A stretch of 5,601 nt of DNA from positions 1 through 5,601 of the IMG/VR virus record IMGVR_UViG_3300030397_000042. One strand, written 5' to 3'. Made by a program: the position numbers and the translations under genes. This DNA comes from a virus. Below the pieces are notes generated by a model. It was not told the origin of the DNA. It worked only from the letters and a program-made list of their open reading frames with translations, and searched no databases. Shown here piece by piece: positions 1,928-5,601 of this stretch (within the stretch, counting starts at the first letter, position 1; each line of letters starts with the position of its first letter).

Positions 1928-2095
1928 ATGATGCAGTTTCACGTTGAAGTAAGTGAAGATGGTGCCCAAGTTAATACCCGTGTTGAACTGCGGGGTACTG
2001 CTTGGGAAGTTATGGAGTTCCTGCAAACGGTGCGGGATACTCTGGATAATACAATTGATGACCTCGAACGAGGTGAAGGACGGGTAATACAATGA
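1928..2095 (+). CDS. Hypothetical small acidic protein, 55 aa
   Basis: A perfect SD (AGGAGG, 1915-1920) lies 7 nt before ATG 1928 (ATGATG). Product: MMQFHVEVSEDGAQVNTRVELRGTAWEVMEFLQTVRDTLDNTIDDLERGEGRVIQ, with 12 D/E against 5 K/R. The track's longer form from 1754 would run through the terminator, a hairpin and the dif-like site, so the short form is preferred. No family was recognised. Confidence 0.6.
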   Translation: MMQFHVEVSEDGAQVNTRVELRGTAWEVMEFLQTVRDTLDNTIDDLERGEGRVIQ

Positions 2096-2292
2096 GTAAT
2101 GAAGCTCTGATTAATGCTCTTGCGAAAGAGGAATCTAAGTTGGTTCGTCAGGAAGAGAACCATGAAGCGTCGAAGGCCGTGGTTGCCGTGATTGGTGATT
2201 CGGCTAAAGAAGCTAAGAAGCGTGATAAACAGCTAGAAGATATTGCGCAGACTAAGAAGAATATCGCTGCTCTTAAGAAAGCGATTAAATAG
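2092..2292 (+). CDS. Hypothetical lysine-rich helical (coiled-coil-like) protein, 66 aa
   Basis: ATG 2092 overlaps the upstream TGA (ATGA), which suggests translational coupling. The composition is A/K/E-rich with few helix breakers, 14 K/R against 11 D/E. It ends in three consecutive in-frame TAG codons (2290-2298). No family was recognised. Confidence 0.55.
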   Translation: MSNEALINALAKEESKLVRQEENHEASKAVVAVIGDSAKEAKKRDKQLEDIAQTKKNIAALKKAIK

Positions 2293-2321
2293 TAGTAGCG
2301 TCCTGCTGCTGCTGGCCTGAA

Positions 2322-2343
2322 CCGGGGGGAGATGTACCCCCGG
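2322..2343 (+). other. GC-only stem-loop (7-bp stem)
   Basis: ccggggg (2322-2328) pairs with cccccgg (2337-2343). The loop is gagatgta. Confidence 0.55.
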
Positions 2344-2361
2344 GGATGGCCTTGTGGCGCG

Positions 2362-2387
2362 CCAAAATCGCCGTGTGGCGATTTTGG
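2362..2387 (+). other. Perfect 11-bp stem-loop with tetraloop
   Basis: ccaaaatcgcc (2362-2372) pairs with ggcgattttgg (2377-2387) around loop gtgt. A G7 run follows rather than a T tract, so it is not a canonical terminator on either strand. Confidence 0.7.
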
Positions 2388-2397
2388 GGGGGAAGGA

Positions 2398-2446
2398 GTA
2401 CCATAGCCACCTGGAGTCGCTGCGCTCCTCTAGGCGGCTCTGGTAC
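2398..2446 (+). other. Long imperfect stem-loop (14-bp outer stem with 2 mismatches, 4-bp inner stem); weak terminator candidate
   Basis: gtaccatagccacc (2398-2411) pairs with ggcggctctggtac (2433-2446) at 12 of 14 positions. The inner pair is ggag (2413-2416) with ctcc (2425-2428). It is followed by a-tttt (2447-2451). Confidence 0.55.
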
Positions 2447-2472
2447 ATTTTAATGATGAAAGTCAAAAGACT

Positions 2473-2499
2473 CGCCCTACCCCTGATCGGGGTAGGGCG
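2473..2499 (+). other. Perfect 11-bp GC-rich stem-loop just upstream of the lipoprotein RBS
   Basis: cgccctacccc (2473-2483) pairs with ggggtagggcg (2489-2499) around loop tgatc. It ends 7 nt before GAGG 2507-2510. Confidence 0.7.
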
Positions 2500-2518
2500 T
2501 AAAAGCGAGGAAAGAGTT

Positions 2519-2710
2519 ATGAAGAAATTGGGAATAATATTAGTGACATTTTGTTTGTCCGGATGCGGTGCGATCAGTGCTACTAGTTTGCGTTGTGGTA
2601 CTGACGGTGATGATAGCTATGTAGAGTTGGTAAGCGCTCCACAAAATGTTGGTAGTAATGGGAGGGTAATTAGTGAAATCTGTGCGTTTGCGTATGATCG
2701 AGAAACTTGA
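2519..2710 (+). CDS. Small predicted lipoprotein, 63-aa precursor and 47-aa mature form
   Basis: GAGG (2507-2510) lies 8 nt before ATG 2519. The N-terminus MKKLGIILVTFCLSGC has a basic n-region, a hydrophobic core and the lipobox L-S-G-C (Cys16). Gly is at +2. The mature part is hydrophilic with two further Cys (C26, C55). The track's 118-aa form from 2354 would run through three hairpins and is rejected. Confidence 0.65.
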   Translation: MKKLGIILVTFCLSGCGAISATSLRCGTDGDDSYVELVSAPQNVGSNGRVISEICAFAYDRET

Positions 2711-2817
2711 GGACATGCTGGATTTGAATATTCGGCGTGAGTTTCGTATCCATGCTACTAAGTGGGATGCGATTAAGTGTATGGCTAGAAGTTTGTATTA
2801 TGAAGGAGTAAACAGAA

Positions 2818-2934
2818 ATGAAAAGGCGTAGTATGAGTGGTAGTGGTTCTCGTAGTTATTTTACGGCTACTGCTAGTAAGACTCATTATAAGAATATTAA
2901 GCCGCGTCCGATGCGTGGTGGTATTCGTTTGTAA
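2818..2934 (+). CDS. VP8: Small basic DNA-binding / packaging protein VP8 (phiX174 J analogue), 38 aa
   Basis: This ORF is too short to appear in the supplied track. AAGGAG (2803-2808) lies 9 nt before ATG 2818, and the stop is TAA 2932-2934. Product: MKRRSMSGSGSRSYFTATASKTHYKNIKPRPMRGGIRL, with 10 K/R and no D/E. The C-terminal KN...RPMRGG.R. signature is typical of gokushovirus ORF8/VP8. It sits directly upstream of VP4. Confidence 0.8.
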   Translation: MKRRSMSGSGSRSYFTATASKTHYKNIKPRPMRGGIRL

Positions 2935-2937
2935 GAA

Positions 2938-3954
2938 ATGGGCTGCGATAGTCCGTTGAAGGGATATAAGTGTCGTGAGACTGGTGGATTGGTTTTCAAA
3001 AAAGAGCAAAGTTTCGGAGAAAAAATGGATGTTGCGTGTGGTTCTTGTCTTGGCTGTAGGCTTGATTATAGTCGGATGTGGGCTATGCGAATTACTCACG
3101 AAGCGAGTCTGTATGAATTTGGTAGAGGCAATGCTTTTGTTACTTTAACGTATAGGGATAAGATGGAAGCTAGTCTTGAACAGTTGGAGAATCGTAAATA
3201 TATTCCTGATGATTGGAGTTTGCACCCTGAGCATATGACGTTGTTCCTGAAGCGTCTGCGGAAAGCGTATCCTGAAACTAATATTAGATTTTTTTATGCT
3301 GGGGAATACGGTCGTAGATGTAAGCATGGAATTGACGTTAAGCGTGTGGGGTGTCCTATCTGTAAGGTGGGGCGCCCCCATTTTCATGTGTGCTTGTTTA
3401 ATTTTGCTTGTGATGACTTGGAAGCGTATGCTAGTGACGGTGGAGTTATTAGAAAGACGTCTAAGAAGCTGGAAAAGATTTGGGGATATGGCTTTGTGGA
3501 TGTCGGTGAACTTAATTTTGCTAGTGCTAGTTATACTGCGGGTTATGTCTTGAAAAAGGTGCGTGGTCCTGTGGCTGATGATCATTATATGAACTTTGAT
3601 ATGGAGACGGGTGAAGTGATTTATTTGACTCCTGAGTTTGTGCGAATGTCGAGAGGCAATGCGAAGTATAAAGGTCAGAGGTGTGGGATTGGTGCCGGGT
3701 GGTATGAGAAGTACAAGGATGATGTTTTCCCTAGTGGTATGGTTCCGGTGCCGGGTAAAGGTGTAGTGCCGGGAGTGCCGCGTTATTATGATGAAATATT
3801 GAAGGAAGAGAACCCTGCGAGGTACGAAGAAATGCGTGAAGTGCGGGAGACTTATAGAAGGGAACATGCTGATGAATATACTGCTGAAAGATTGGAGACT
3901 AAACATAAGTGTAAAAAAGCGAGATTAAATATGTTTGAAAAGAGGTATTTATGA
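2938..3954 (+). CDS. VP4: Replication initiation protein VP4 (HUH rolling-circle endonuclease, phiX174 A analogue), 338 aa
   Basis: It carries an N-terminal CGSCLGCRLDYSRMWAMR block, motif 1 FVTLTY, the HUH motif GRPHFHVCLF (H-F-H at 3379-3387), and the double-Tyr motif SYTAGYVLKK (YxxxY..K). Confidence 0.95.
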   Translation: MGCDSPLKGYKCRETGGLVFKKEQSFGEKMDVACGSCLGCRLDYSRMWAMRITHEASLYEFGRGNAFVTLTYRDKMEASLEQLENRKYIPDDWSLHPEHMTLFLKRLRKAYPETNIRFFYAGEYGRRCKHGIDVKRVGCPICKVGRPHFHVCLFNFACDDLEAYASDGGVIRKTSKKLEKIWGYGFVDVGELNFASASYTAGYVLKKVRGPVADDHYMNFDMETGEVIYLTPEFVRMSRGNAKYKGQRCGIGAGWYEKYKDDVFPSGMVPVPGKGVVPGVPRYYDEILKEENPARYEEMREVRETYRREHADEYTAERLETKHKCKKARLNMFEKRYL

Positions 3955-4133
3955 ATGTATGGAGGGCGTACGAAAAAGAAGGAGATGGAATCTATGTCCC
4001 GAGATGTAGTAAGTGTGGGACGTTTAAGGAGCCTTTGCATGTGCATTGGTTTTTCACGGGTTTGTATTGTAGGAATTGCGTGCAATATAAACTTTATGAT
4101 GATTGTAGGACTTTGGAGGATATAAAGAAATGA
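3951..4133 (+). CDS. Hypothetical zinc-ribbon protein, 60 aa (CxxC-x17-CxxC)
   Basis: ATG 3951 overlaps the VP4 TGA (ATGA), and its own TGA overlaps the VP5 ATG (ATGA). AGAGG (3941-3945) lies 5 nt upstream. The four Cys are C19, C22, C40 and C43, in ...PRCSKCGTFKEPLHVHWFFTGLYCRNCVQ... Confidence 0.6.
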   Translation: MNVWRAYEKEGDGIYVPRCSKCGTFKEPLHVHWFFTGLYCRNCVQYKLYDDCRTLEDIKK

Positions 4134-4390
4134 AAGTTAAACTGTATGCTGTTTTAGATAGTGCTAGTGGGGTGTATGATGGTCCGGTTCCGGCTCAAGC
4201 TGATGGAGTCGCGATGCGTAATTTTCTGAATGTCGCTAAGAACCCTGATAGTCCTATTGGTAAGAATCCTGAGCATTTTAGTATTTGGCGTGTTGGGGAA
4301 TACAACGATGCTACTGGTGAAGTGACTCCTGAGACTAAGGAGTGTTTGGGACATGCGTTAGATTTGTTAACGCCTACTGAGGAAGAGTAA
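4130..4390 (+). CDS. VP5: Nonstructural protein VP5 (gokushovirus ORF5 family), 86 aa
   Basis: GGAGGA (4115-4120) lies 9 nt before ATG 4130. The pattern MKVKLYAVLDSASGVYDGP...AMRNF...KNPEHFSIWRVGEYNDATGEV matches the conserved VP5 layout (MK.F.V.D.K...F......A.R.F........HPEDF.L.E.G.FDD.TG). It occupies the canonical position between VP4 and VP1. Confidence 0.8.
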   Translation: MKVKLYAVLDSASGVYDGPVPAQADGVAMRNFLNVAKNPDSPIGKNPEHFSIWRVGEYNDATGEVTPETKECLGHALDLLTPTEEE

Positions 4391-5601
4391 ATGCGAAGTG
4401 TGATGAAGCATTCGTTTAGTGAGGTGCCGAGGGCGGATATTCCGCGTTCTAGTTTTAATCGGTCTCATGGTTATAAGACGACGTTCGATGCTGATGGGTT
4501 GGTTCCTGTATTTGTTGATGATATAGTGCCGGGTGATACTTTTAACTGTAATATGAATTTTTTTGCTAGGCTGGCTACGCCGTTGCATCCTATTATGGAT
4601 AATTTGTATCTTGAGAGTTTTTTCTTTTTTGTGCCGTATCGTTTGGTATGGGATAACTGGGAAAAGATGCATGGTGCGCAGGATAATCCTACCGATTCGA
4701 TTGATTTTACGGTGCCCGTTGCTACGTGGGGTGGGTCTCATAGTCTAGGTGGTACTTATGATTATATGGGTCTACCTACGGGTATTGCTAATGTTAGTAA
4801 TATTGTGCATCAGTTGCCTTTTAGGGCGTATAATCTGATTTGGAATGAGTGGTTTCGTGATGAGAATCTACAAAATAGTGAAGTCGTAGATACTGATGAC
4901 GGTCCTGATAGTCCGGCTGATTATGCTCCTTTGCTGAAGCGTGGTAAGAGACATGATTATTTTACGTCGTGCTTGCCGTGGCCTCAGAAGGGTGATGCTG
5001 TTTCGTTGCCGCTTGGTACTGTGGCTCCTGTCGAAGGTCTTACTGCTGATACTGGTCCTACGTTTGCTAGAGTGGGTTCTGCTGGTGTTGATAGTTATGG
5101 CCTTATGAATCAGACTGGTGTTGCCGATTTCGTGTGGCAGACTGATGATACTAATGGGGCGGCGGCGTGGCTTTCTACTGGTCTACAGGCTAATTTGGCT
5201 AGTGCTACTGCTGCTACTATTAATGATTTGAGGCTTGCGTTTCAGACTCAGAGGTTATTGGAGCGTGATGCCCGTTCGGGAACTAGGTATAATGAACTTA
5301 TCTTATCTCATTTTGGTGTTACTGTGCCTGATTTTCGTGTACAGCGCCCTGAGTTTCTTGGTGGTGGAAGTGAGAAGATTAATGTTAATCCCGTCGCACA
5401 GACTAGTGGTCAGCCTACTCCTGCGAGTGATGATATGCTTGGGCAGTTGGCTGCTTTTGGTACTGTATCGGGAAGTCATGGGTTTACGAAGTCCTTTGTG
5501 GAGCATGGTGTAGTTATTGGGCTTGTGAATGTTCGTGGTGACATTACTTATAGTCAAGGAATTGAGCGGTACTTTACGAAGCAGACTAGGTATGATTTTT
5601 A
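4391..5601 (+). CDS. VP1: Major capsid protein VP1, 5' part, open at the window end. The full CDS is 4391..5478 plus 1..511, 1599 nt and 532 aa.
   Basis: It is absent from the ORF track because it has no stop inside the window. ATG 4391 directly follows the VP5 TAA, and GAGGA (4379-4383) lies 7 nt upstream. Hand translation finds no stop before 5601. Sequence includes MRSVMKHSFSEVPRADIPRSSFNRSHGYKTTFDADGLVPVFVDDIVPGDTF...LPFRAYNLIWNEWFRDENLQ...RHDYFTSCLPWPQKG...INDLRLAFQTQRLLERDARSGTRYNELILSHFGV...RPEFLGGG, which are hallmark gokushovirus VP1 blocks. Confidence 0.95.
   Translation, partial: MRSVMKHSFSEVPRADIPRSSFNRSHGYKTTFDADGLVPVFVDDIVPGDTFNCNMNFFARLATPLHPIMDNLYLESFFFFVPYRLVWDNWEKMHGAQDNPTDSIDFTVPVATWGGSHSLGGTYDYMGLPTGIANVSNIVHQLPFRAYNLIWNEWFRDENLQNSEVVDTDDGPDSPADYAPLLKRGKRHDYFTSCLPWPQKGDAVSLPLGTVAPVEGLTADTGPTFARVGSAGVDSYGLMNQTGVADFVWQTDDTNGAAAWLSTGLQANLASATAATINDLRLAFQTQRLLERDARSGTRYNELILSHFGVTVPDFRVQRPEFLGGGSEKINVNPVAQTSGQPTPASDDMLGQLAAFGTVSGSHGFTKSFVEHGVVIGLVNVRGDITYSQGIERYFTKQTRYDF
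5479..5601. repeat. Terminal direct redundancy, copy 2 (identical to 1-123)
   Basis: See copy 1. This is an exact 123-nt duplicate, consistent with assembly or linearisation overlap of a circular genome. Confidence 0.97.

What the first reader, a model, noticed from the sequence alone, without database searches (positions are those of the whole stretch)
2519..2710. Small outer-membrane-type lipoprotein encoded by a microvirus: candidate lysis or superinfection-exclusion factor
The ORF begins MKKLGIILVTFCLSGC, a textbook signal peptidase II signal: a basic n-region, a hydrophobic core and the lipobox L-S-G-C. Gly at +2 gives no Lol-avoidance Asp. The mature part is hydrophilic, 47 aa long, and has two extra Cys (C26, C55) that could form a disulfide. 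It has its own SD (GAGG, 8-nt spacing).

Lipoproteins are not part of the canonical gokushovirus gene set (VP1-5, VP8), and no gokushovirus lysis gene is established. Two precedents fit:
- Small lipoproteins that cause release or lysis, such as colicin lysis/BRP proteins and the Rz1 o-spanins.
- Prophage or phage lipoproteins that block the phage's own receptor, such as T5 Llp and phi80/N15 Cor.

The second option would suit a temperate lifestyle suggested by the dif-like site.
Basis: partly seen in the sequence, partly recalled or inferred. Interest (0 to 1): 0.75.

Follow-up and report, generated by a model that had tools for sequence, protein, structure and literature searches.

The report
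Conserved small lipoprotein gene in microviruses
A tiny single-stranded DNA phage carries a real, strongly conserved gene for a 48-residue lipid-anchored envelope protein that belongs to a previously unannotated, microvirus-only family; its job is untested, and blocking the phage's own receptor is the best guess.

Summary
ORF 2519-2710 (+) encodes MKKLGIILVTFCLSGC..., with a GAGG Shine-Dalgarno 8 nt upstream and lipobox L-S-G-C.

It is a real gene. More than 130 non-redundant homologs exist, and every one whose genomic context was examined sits on a 4-5.6 kb microvirus contig. All lie just upstream of the 38-aa VP8-like gene and Rep.

The signal peptide drifts freely (pN 0.51) but stays hydrophobic. 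The mature part is under strong purifying selection (pN 0.19, pS 0.71) and is as conserved as the capsid protein or more. The three cysteines (lipobox C16, plus C26 and C55) are essentially invariant.

The family is absent from Pfam, PHROGs, NCBIfam and PDB. It is unannotated in the three GenBank records that carry it, and pattern scans of 185,579 reference genomes found none.

It marks one coherent gokushovirus clade. It is absent from the whole sister clade, was lost at least once, and was transferred to two distant microvirus lineages. It is therefore an add-on, not the universal gokushovirus lysis gene.

By architecture it resembles the ~6 kDa periplasmic exclusion lipoproteins Llp, Cor and Rtp45, but it shows no homology to them. 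Function is inferred only: receptor masking about 0.4, lysis about 0.2. The temperate/dif argument is not supported.

The parts
2507..2510 (+). Shine-Dalgarno GAGG, 8 nt before the ATG
   Evidence: Read directly. Close relatives carry GGAGG or AGGAG at the same place.
2519..2563 (+). Signal peptide, residues 1-15 (MKKLGIILVTFCLSG): basic n-region K2K3, uncharged core, lipobox L13-S14-G15 before C16
   Evidence: The sequence varies in homologs but stays hydrophobic (pN 0.51). AF2 predicts a helix at residues 2-13.
2564..2566 (+). Codon of Cys16, the predicted lipid-attachment and SPase II cleavage site (+1)
   Evidence: Invariant in alignments A1, A2 and A3. Present in all but one full-length member.
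2564..2710 (+). Mature lipoprotein, 48 aa plus stop: CGAISATSLRCGTDGDDSYVELVSAPQNVGSNGRVISEICAFAYDRET. Predicted beta-hairpin followed by a helix and an acidic tail.
   Evidence: Strong purifying selection (pN 0.19 against pS 0.71). Identity to relatives is equal to or above that of VP1. AF2 topology comes, at moderate to low confidence.
2594..2596 (+). Codon of Cys26 (mature position 11), inferred disulfide partner
   Evidence: Invariant in 104 sequences. Lies on predicted strand 1.
2681..2683 (+). Codon of Cys55 (mature position 40), inferred disulfide partner
   Evidence: Invariant in 104 sequences. Spacing from Cys26 is 29 +/- 1 residues in 120 of 121 members. Lies on the predicted C-terminal helix.
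2473..2499 (+). Perfect 11-bp hairpin (CGCCCTACCCC / GGGGTAGGGCG, 5-nt loop) 20 nt upstream of the ATG, within a highly structured non-coding stretch 2293-2518
   Evidence: z = -6.7. Comparable hairpins lie upstream of the gene in L001, L027 and L030. Role unknown.
2714..2739 (+). Terminator-like hairpin plus T-rich tail, 4 nt after the stop codon
   Evidence: Consensus scan only. Not evidence of function.
2818..2934 (+). Context: 38-aa basic VP8-like gene. The lipoprotein-VP8-Rep order is conserved.
   Evidence: The lipoprotein ends about 115-135 nt before Rep in nearly all 41 loci.
2938..3954 (+). Context: replication initiator VP4
   Evidence: Pfam REP_ORF2-G2P, E = 1e-15.

Best explanation
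**Shown.** ORF 2519-2710 is a real protein-coding gene of a complete 5,601-nt circular gokushovirus-like genome. It founds a microvirus-restricted family of small lipoproteins. Each member has a 14-22 aa SPase II signal peptide, a lipobox (mostly L-[SGA]-G-C), and a 39-58 aa mature domain with two further invariant cysteines.

**Inferred biogenesis** (from the established Sec/Lgt/LspA/Lnt and Lol pathways):
- The precursor is exported, diacylglyceryl-modified on Cys16 and cleaved before it.
- Lacking Asp at +2, it is delivered to the inner leaflet of the outer membrane. This holds if the host follows the enterobacterial sorting rule.
- In the periplasm, Cys26 and Cys55 form a disulfide that staples a beta-hairpin to a C-terminal helix.

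**Inferred function, the least certain step.** The roughly 5 kDa tethered domain binds a conserved host outer-membrane protein from the periplasmic side. Most likely this is the phage's own receptor or entry conduit, which it locks in a state that no longer supports adsorption or DNA delivery. That would exclude superinfection. It would also stop progeny from being wasted on infected cells and on envelope debris after lysis, as T5 Llp, Cor and Rtp45 do.

**Confidence.** About 0.95 that it is a real lipoprotein gene. About 0.4 for the receptor-masking mechanism, which is the figure given below.
For: **The gene is real.**
- 65 homologs and 68 clusters at 50% identity.
- Constant synteny on microvirus contigs.
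- Mature core pN 0.19 against pS 0.71; signal peptide pN 0.51.
- The saturated synonymous sites rule out DNA-level constraint or an overprinted gene.

**It is a lipoprotein.**
- Lipobox statistics over 121 members: Cys 100%, G/A at -1 in 97%, L at -3 in 74%, a K/R-flanked uncharged run of median 13 residues, and never D at +2.
- The only database echoes are weak hits to lipoprotein N-terminal models: LPAM_1, LptM, YceK/YidQ, and the Cor and Rz-like signal peptides.

**A disulfide is likely.** C11 and C40 (mature numbering) are the only invariant columns in 104 sequences.

**It is an accessory gene rather than an essential one.**
- Present throughout one VP1 clade, absent from about 70 sister-clade genomes that have only the core genes.
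- Absent from the complete genome L066.
- Transferred to lineages whose VP1 is only 33% identical.

**A conserved host target is implied.** The mature domain is 93% identical where VP1 is 69% (L001), and 54% where VP1 is 33% (L006).

**Architectural parallel with exclusion lipoproteins.**
- Llp, Cor and Rtp45 are roughly 6 kDa periplasmic OM lipoproteins of lytic and temperate phages.
- Llp has a Cys11-Cys58 disulfide tying its termini (PMC9586334; PMC12685063).
- Llp carries Cys at precursor positions 16 and 26, exactly as here.

**It is the only predicted envelope-targeted product.** No holin, endolysin or spanin partner is evident.
Against: - There is no sequence or fold homology to Llp, Cor or Rtp45. 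The family profile against PDB sequences, which include Llp 8a60_B, gave nothing at E <= 10. hhalign aligns only the signal peptide through Cys2. Foldseek found nothing.
- Known exclusion lipoproteins evolve fast and track the receptor-binding protein. This one is among the most conserved proteins of the genome, while the capsid, which is the receptor-binding structure, diverges widely.
- The gene is not next to a receptor-binding gene.
- The documented exclusion mechanism in gokushoviruses is a different one, the VP2 hypervariable region (Kirchberger 2021, as cited in PMC9239249 and PMC9512667).
- Host, receptor and expression timing are all unknown.
- The structure model is only moderately confident (pLDDT 76 and 63).
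Confidence: 0.4

Rival explanations
1. It is a lysis or release effector. Once it accumulates in the envelope, the lipoprotein causes lysis or outer-membrane permeabilisation. It could do so like colicin lysis proteins or entericidin B (activating phospholipase, damaging the membrane). Alternatively it could inhibit a periplasmic or outer-membrane step of envelope synthesis, such as Lpo-PBP activation, Lpt, Bam or Lol.
For: - To my knowledge no lysis gene is known for gokushoviruses.
- It is the only predicted exported protein in the genome, and no peptidase, endolysin or membrane ORF is seen in lipoprotein-positive genomes.
- Kirchberger 2022 places lysis-associated accessory genes between the structural genes and VP4 in other microvirus families (PMC9239249).
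- Extreme conservation of the mature domain fits a conserved essential host target.
- The gene is retained in almost every member of a deep clade.
Against: - About 70 sister-clade genomes of 4.2-4.7 kb, with the same core genes, lack any lipoprotein (4/64 regex hits against 2/64 in the control), yet they must lyse their hosts.
- L066, inside the clade, lacks it.
- There is no match to Lysis_col (BRP), entericidin or Rz1 models.
- The mature domain is longer than a BRP and is Cys-stapled.
- Known single-gene lysis proteins of small phages are, to my knowledge, inner-membrane proteins, not lipoproteins.
Confidence: 0.2
2. It modulates the host envelope in some other way. It would bind a conserved periplasmic or outer-membrane component for a purpose other than self-receptor masking or lysis. 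Examples are excluding competing phages that use another receptor, jamming a transporter or envelope-stress sensor to keep the infected cell productive, or countering an envelope-based defence.
For: - Same evidence as above for a conserved host target and for accessory status.
- Horizontal spread to unrelated microvirus lineages (L006/L026, KP087952). This shows the benefit does not depend on a particular capsid, and so possibly not on a particular receptor.
Against: There is no positive evidence for any specific target. A very small genome, where each gene is costly, argues for a function directly tied to phage yield.
Confidence: 0.3
3. It is a captured host gene of the YceK/YidQ lipoprotein family, as JGI's automatic name for some homologs suggests.
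For: - JGI names 5 homologs 'uncharacterized protein YceK'.
- NCBIfam NF007555 gives sub-threshold hits in 23 of 55 members, best E = 0.0047.
Against: - No member hits Pfam DUF1375/YceK at E <= 1.
- The sub-threshold NCBIfam hits seen across the family go to lipoprotein N-terminal models. For the window protein the only one listed, LptM, covers residues 1-17.
- No cellular homolog turned up in 185,579 genomes (pattern-limited).
- The exhaustive HMM search returned only short, microvirus-sized proteins.
Confidence: 0.03
4. It is a chance ORF that merely resembles a lipoprotein signal, in a T/G-rich strand that readily yields hydrophobic peptides.
For: - Lipobox-like ORFs occur by chance in about 3-13% of strands.
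- The + strand is 31% T, 30% G and 15% C.
Against: - More than 130 homologs in conserved synteny.
- pN/pS pattern of purifying selection.
- Invariant cysteines.
- A conserved SD in close relatives.
Confidence: 0.02

Closest known systems
T5 Llp (lytic conversion lipoprotein) and the Cor family (T1, phi80, N15)
   Same: - Phage-encoded and very small.
- SPase II signal of 15 residues, with the lipid-attachment Cys at precursor position 16.
- A second Cys at position 26 (mature position 11) and a third Cys near the C-terminus. In Llp these two form a disulfide tying the termini (PMC9586334; sequence check).
- Also encoded by strictly lytic phages.
- No Asp at +2.
   Different: - No detectable homology beyond the signal peptide.
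- Mature domain of 48 aa against 62 aa.
- Predicted hairpin-plus-helix fold. Neither Llp entry (8a60, 7qjf) appeared in the Foldseek list shown.
- Not adjacent to a receptor-binding gene.
- Far more conserved than its capsid.
- Target unknown.
Rtp45 and related LptD-targeting exclusion lipoproteins of small siphophages
   Same: A roughly 6 kDa periplasmic OM lipoprotein of a lytic phage. It binds the periplasmic rim of an essential, conserved OM machine (LptDE) and changes its extracellular loops (PMC12685063). Such a conserved target would explain the high conservation seen here.
   Different: - No sequence match. The profile search against PDB sequences gave nothing.
- Nothing shows that LptD is the receptor of these microviruses.
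Colicin lysis proteins (BRPs) and entericidin B
   Same: Small lipoproteins whose accumulation causes quasi-lysis or bacteriolysis (my own knowledge). Each is a single small gene with no enzymatic domain.
   Different: - No Pfam match among 40 members.
- BRPs are, to my knowledge, about 28-35 aa when mature and have no further Cys. Here the mature part is 48 aa with two invariant Cys.
- The signal peptide is not conserved here.
o-spanins (Rz1)
   Same: A phage-encoded outer-membrane lipoprotein with functionally important Cys.
   Different: - Only one Pro in 48 residues, whereas Rz1 is Pro-rich.
- No i-spanin partner ORF, no endolysin and no holin.
- PHROG Rz-like hits are weak (best E = 0.011) and found in only 3 of 40 members.
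Gokushovirus superinfection exclusion by the VP2 hypervariable region (Kirchberger et al. 2021, cited in PMC9239249)
   Same: It shows that exclusion is under selection in gokushoviruses.
   Different: A different protein and mechanism: a cytoplasmic or virion pilot protein of prophages, not an exported lipoprotein.

Membership tests
Bacterial-type lipoprotein (SPase II substrate) | N-terminal basic n-region followed by an uncharged hydrophobic core of about 7-22 residues | tested here: met
   K2 and K3, then L4-L13. Across 121 homologs the uncharged run has a median of 13 residues and is preceded by K/R in 117.
Bacterial-type lipoprotein (SPase II substrate) | Lipobox [LVI][ASTVI][GAS]-C, with the Cys within roughly the first 35 residues | tested here: met
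   L13-S14-G15-C16. Family-wide: L at -3 in 74%, S/G/A at -2 in 80%, G/A at -1 in 97%, Cys in 100%. From memory, the strict PROSITE PS51257 pattern may not allow the Cys at -4 of this particular sequence. Relatives carry L/T/S/A there.
Bacterial-type lipoprotein (SPase II substrate) | Actual lipid modification and globomycin-sensitive cleavage | not testable with these tools
   Needs labelling or mass spectrometry.
Outer-membrane sorting (Lol pathway, enterobacterial rule) | No Asp at +2 | tested here: met
   +2 is G, S or A in 118 of 121 members and never D. The rule may not apply in the unknown host.
Llp/Cor superinfection-exclusion lipoproteins | Sequence homology of the mature domain | tested here: not met
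   - The PHROG Cor hit for the window protein covers residues 1-26 only, at E = 0.067.
- 3 of 40 members hit Cor, best E = 1.3e-4.
- The profile against PDB sequences, which include Llp 8a60_B, gave no hit at E <= 10.
- hhalign aligns the signal peptide through Cys2 only.
Llp/Cor superinfection-exclusion lipoproteins | Intramolecular disulfide between an N-proximal and a C-proximal Cys | tested here: inconclusive
   Two invariant Cys at mature positions 11 and 40 match the Llp Cys11-Cys58 arrangement.
Llp/Cor superinfection-exclusion lipoproteins | Similar fold | tested here: not met
   Foldseek against PDB gave a best E of 0.67, and neither Llp entry (8a60, 7qjf) appeared among the 50 matches shown. 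The test has low power for a 48-aa domain modelled at pLDDT 63-76.
Llp/Cor superinfection-exclusion lipoproteins | Binds the phage's OM receptor and blocks adsorption | not testable with these tools
   Host and receptor are unknown.
Colicin lysis proteins (Pfam Lysis_col) | Match to the family model; short mature peptide without further Cys | tested here: not met
   No Pfam hit in 40 members at E <= 1. The mature part is 48 aa with two invariant Cys.
o-spanin (Rz1-like) | Pro-rich mature domain; cognate i-spanin gene overlapping or adjacent; holin-endolysin context | tested here: not met
   One Pro. No type II membrane ORF and no endolysin. Only weak PHROG hits, best E = 0.011 in 3 of 40 members.
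YceK/YidQ lipoproteins (DUF1375, NF007555) | Score above the curated cut-off over the mature domain | tested here: not met
   No Pfam hit. The best NCBIfam E-value is 0.0047, too weak to place the protein in the family.
Gokushovirus-like microvirus (context of the gene) | VP1 (Phage_F type), VP3 scaffold, VP4 Rep and ORF5 in one small circular genome | tested here: met
   - Pfam Chlamy_scaf, E = 1e-26; REP_ORF2-G2P, E = 1e-15; Phage_ORF5, E = 1.5e-20.
- VP1 reads across the window ends.
- DNA matches to gokushovirus VP1 genes.

The most novel reading that the evidence does not exclude
The lipoprotein is the lysis effector of this gokushovirus clade. It would be a single-gene lysis protein that acts from the periplasmic side of the outer membrane on a conserved envelope machine. 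That would be a new class beside the MraY, MurA and MurJ inhibitors of other small phages. The lipoprotein-free sister clade would then use a different, still unknown solution.
Probability: 0.15. Interest if true: 0.9.

Novelty: new variant of a known kind. Interest (0 to 1): 0.6.

Why it matters
**What is unusual.**
- Microviruses are thought to carry almost no accessory genes, and their small conserved ORFs are usually left unannotated. All three GenBank genomes that carry this gene leave it unannotated.
- Here a 5 kDa exported, lipid-anchored protein is kept under stronger constraint than the capsid across a deep clade.
- It has also moved between unrelated microvirus lineages.

**What that implies.** The protein probably makes a specific, conserved contact with the host envelope.

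**What it could lead to.**
- If the contact is the receptor, the protein is a handle for finding the unknown receptors and hosts of environmental gokushoviruses. It would also extend Llp/Rtp45-type exclusion from tailed phages to ssDNA phages.
- If the protein causes lysis, it would answer how gokushoviruses lyse cells and point to a new antibacterial target.

Either way, one small synthetic gene makes the question directly testable.

Tried and rejected
- **Family searches.** Pfam, PHROGs and NCBIfam were searched with the single protein and with 40-55 family members. All returned only sub-threshold hits to lipoprotein N-termini.
- **PDB sequence profile.** No hits.
- **Structure.** AF2 was run on the full length (pLDDT 76) and on the mature domain only (pLDDT 63). 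Foldseek against PDB and BFVD gave nothing below E = 0.5. The third Foldseek job was not spent on the low-confidence mature model.
- **hhalign against T5 Llp.** Only the signal peptide through Cys2 aligns.
- **Cellular homologs or prophages.** Two pattern scans of GTDB species representatives found none. These scans need near-exact motifs, so absence is not absolute.
- **Metagenome scan.** Only 3 loci.
- **dif-like site.** Best matches were 17-19 of 28 to four dif sequences, which I take to be chance level.
- **P0130.** This 1,039-aa hit from the exhaustive search is a repetitive surface protein with a 'CGTDC' repeat. I judge it spurious.
- **A second envelope or lysis gene.** No peptidase, endolysin or credible membrane ORF was found in lipoprotein-positive genomes.
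- **Literature.** Seven searches found no report of a microvirus lipoprotein. The library lacks most subscription journals.
- **Exact protein look-up.** The exact window protein is not on record in the contig index.

Full report
**1. The observation**

The window is a complete circular microvirus genome.
- The major capsid gene reads without interruption from 4391 through the window end into 1-511, giving 574 aa.
- The other core genes are all on the + strand: VP2 at 511-1176, the VP3 scaffold at 1173-1715 (Pfam Chlamy_scaf, E = 1e-26), VP4/Rep at 2938-3954, and ORF5 at 4130-4390.
- DNA similarity to known phages is limited to short stretches of gokushovirus VP1 genes.

- GAGG lies at 2507-2510, 8 nt before the ATG.
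- The n-region (K2, K3), the uncharged core (L4-L13), the lipobox (L-S-G-C16), Gly at +2, and the extra cysteines C26 and C55 are all as described.

**2. Is it more than chance?**

Taken alone, not convincingly. A lipobox-type regex finds an ORF of at least 40 aa on the non-coding strand of 5/39 and 2/64 related genomes. The + strand is T/G-rich, which favours hydrophobic peptides.

The comparative data settle it.
- A word-indexed search found 65 homologs at 54-89% identity, many on 5.0-5.6 kb contigs.
- An exhaustive profile search of 1.84 billion representatives found 68 clusters. All are short proteins except one spurious repeat protein.
- In the alignments the signal peptide changes freely, while the mature part is nearly frozen: CGAISATSLRCGTDGxSSYLELVSAPQNVxxNTRAIGEMCAFAYEG.
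- Across the broad family the only invariant residues are the three cysteines.
- Over 121 members the lipobox Cys is always present. Position -1 is G/A in 97%, -3 is L in 74%, and +2 is never Asp. The Cys26-Cys55 spacing is 29 +/- 1.
- Nei-Gojobori counts on 12 distinct genes give pS 0.71 and pN 0.19 for the mature core, against pS 0.65 and pN 0.51 for the signal peptide.

The constraint therefore acts on the protein. It does not act on the DNA or on an overlapping frame. Close relatives carry strong SD motifs at the same distance.

**3. Context and distribution**

Every contig examined is a microvirus with the order VP1-VP2-VP3-(small ORFs)-lipoprotein-38-aa VP8-like-Rep-small ORF-ORF5. In 41 loci the gene ends about 115-135 nt before Rep, which is the length of the VP8-like gene.

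The mature domain is as conserved as VP1 or more so. It is 93% identical against 69% for VP1 in L001, 78% against 67% in L024, and 54% against 33% in L006/L026.

I fetched 80 VP1 relatives without regard to the lipoprotein and scanned them with a family HMM. On a VP1 neighbour-joining tree of 109 genomes:
- The gene marks one coherent clade. The exceptions are L066 and the truncated L042.
- It is absent from the entire sister clade of about 70 smaller genomes (4.2-4.7 kb).
- It appears in two very distant lineages, L006/L026 and the Eel River basin pequenovirus KP087952. This indicates horizontal transfer between microviruses.

L066 is a complete 4,512-nt genome with only a 370-nt gap where the gene would be. 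The sister clade has no other lipoprotein.

Only three GenBank phage records contain a homolog, and each leaves the stretch unannotated. Two pattern scans of 185,579 species-representative bacterial and archaeal genomes found none.

**4. What it is not**

- Pfam, PHROGs and NCBIfam give only sub-threshold hits, nearly all to lipoprotein families or lipoprotein N-terminal models: LPAM_1, LptM, YceK/YidQ, Cor and Rz-like.
- These echoes support the lipoprotein signal but place the mature domain in no family. JGI's automatic 'YceK' label is not borne out.
- The family profile hits nothing among PDB sequences, although T5 Llp is there as 8a60_B.
- hhalign against Llp aligns only the signal peptide up to the second Cys.
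- AlphaFold2 predicts a signal-peptide helix, a beta-hairpin (residues 23-29 and 32-39) and a C-terminal helix (44-58). Confidence is pLDDT 76 for the full length and 63 for the mature domain alone.
- Foldseek finds no match in PDB or BFVD.
- There is no i-spanin, holin, endolysin or peptidase in this genome or in its lipoprotein-positive relatives.

**5. How it most likely works**

*Shown.* It is a conserved gene with an SPase II-type signal, two further invariant Cys, and restriction to microviruses.

*Inferred from the established lipoprotein pathway.* The precursor is exported through Sec, lipidated by Lgt on Cys16, cleaved by LspA and N-acylated. If the host follows the +2 rule, Lol delivers it to the inner leaflet of the outer membrane. 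Periplasmic oxidation then joins Cys26 (strand 1) to Cys55 (helix).

*Inferred function.* A roughly 5 kDa tethered, stapled domain in which almost every residue is constrained, and which works in capsids as different as 33% identity, must contact something conserved in the host envelope.

The closest known things by architecture are the small periplasmic exclusion lipoproteins.
- T5 Llp has its lipid-attachment Cys at precursor position 16, its second Cys at 26, and a Cys11-Cys58 disulfide tying the termini. [quoted passage not shown]
- The Cor family shares this layout.
- Rtp45 is about 6 kDa and binds the periplasmic rim of LptDE (PMC12685063).
- These proteins occur in strictly lytic phages. 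There they prevent wasteful adsorption to infected cells and debris.

The add-on distribution of the gene (a sister clade without it, and one loss) fits such a fitness-enhancing accessory function better than an essential lysis role.

I put receptor or entry masking at about 0.4, lysis or release at about 0.2, and another envelope-directed function at about 0.3. The remainder goes to a host-derived YceK relative or a chance ORF.

Against receptor masking:
- There is no homology to the known exclusion proteins.
- The conservation is unusually high for that class.
- The gene has no linkage to a receptor-binding gene.
- The known gokushovirus exclusion mechanism works through VP2.

**6.

The 'temperate lifestyle / dif-like site' support is not reproduced. 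The best matches to four dif sequences are 17-19 of 28, and no chromosomal copy of the gene was found. The exclusion hypothesis does not need temperance.

**7. Novelty and verdict**

Small phage lipoproteins are a known kind. However, this family is new by sequence, unannotated, and confined to Microviridae. I found no report of any lipoprotein in that group (Kirchberger 2022 mentions only unnamed roughly 65-aa accessory proteins).

I rate it a new variant of a known kind, with interest 0.6. The gene is certain, its function is open, and one synthetic gene would test it.

Noticed in passing
window 4391-5601 joined to 1-511: The VP1 reading frame continues across the window ends (574 aa). The window is therefore one complete circular genome of 5,601 nt, at the large end for gokushovirus-like phages. 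The lipoprotein-free sister clade is 4.2-4.7 kb.
   Followed up: yes
window 2293-2518 (also 1705-1766): The non-coding stretch upstream of the lipoprotein gene is very strongly structured (MFE -122.7 kcal/mol, z = -6.7). It has perfect 11-bp hairpins at 2362-2387 and 2473-2499. Further perfect hairpins lie at 1705-1736 and 1741-1766, after VP3. A similar 'CGAAATCGC' hairpin is present in L001 and L027. These could be a complementary-strand origin or transcription punctuation.
   Followed up: partly
window 2092-2292: A 66-aa coiled-coil-like ORF (MSNEALINALAKEESKL...GDSAKEAKK...). It has clear homologs (MSNAILDLI..REQxKL...LGDSAKLQNKLARQE...) at the same position in L001, L005, L030, L032, L034 and L037. 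It is a second conserved accessory gene of the subclade, of unknown function.
   Followed up: partly
window 3951-4133: A 60-aa ORF between Rep and ORF5 with two CxxC pairs (CSKC...CRNC), which looks like a zinc ribbon. It is conserved at 46-72% identity in the nearest subclade only.
   Followed up: partly
window 2673-2831: A 52-aa ORF that overlaps the last 38 nt of the lipoprotein gene and fills the extra 107 nt before the VP8-like gene. It has no homolog in any fetched locus. L032 has a different extra ORF at the same spot, so this junction appears to accept insertions.
   Followed up: partly
L006, L026 and L035 (GenBank KP087952, 4929-5063): The lipoprotein gene also occurs in microviruses whose VP1 is only about 33% identical to this one, including the Eel River basin pequenovirus. 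In each it lies again just upstream of Rep, in sequence left unannotated in GenBank. This is evidence for gene transfer between distant microvirus lineages, which is reported to be rare.
   Followed up: partly
L009, L010, L013, L039, L044 (upstream of the lipoprotein start): Several subclades have no Shine-Dalgarno motif and instead have A-rich leaders, whereas the window's subclade has GGAGG or AGGAG. This may mean that different subclades infect hosts with different translation-initiation habits.
   Followed up: no
whole window: Strong strand asymmetry of the coding (virion) strand: T 30.6%, G 29.9%, A 24.2%, C 15.4%, with GC at 45%. As a result, off-frame ORFs are rich in L, V, F, C and W and mimic membrane peptides.
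   Followed up: no
L001 (7,540 nt): This contig carries VP1, VP2 and VP3 twice. It is therefore a more-than-unit-length assembly of a circular genome, not a prophage or a larger virus.
   Followed up: partly
whole window: No convincing XerC/D dif-like site. The best matches to the E. coli, Vibrio, Bacillus and Bacteroides-like dif sequences are 17-19 of 28.
   Followed up: yes
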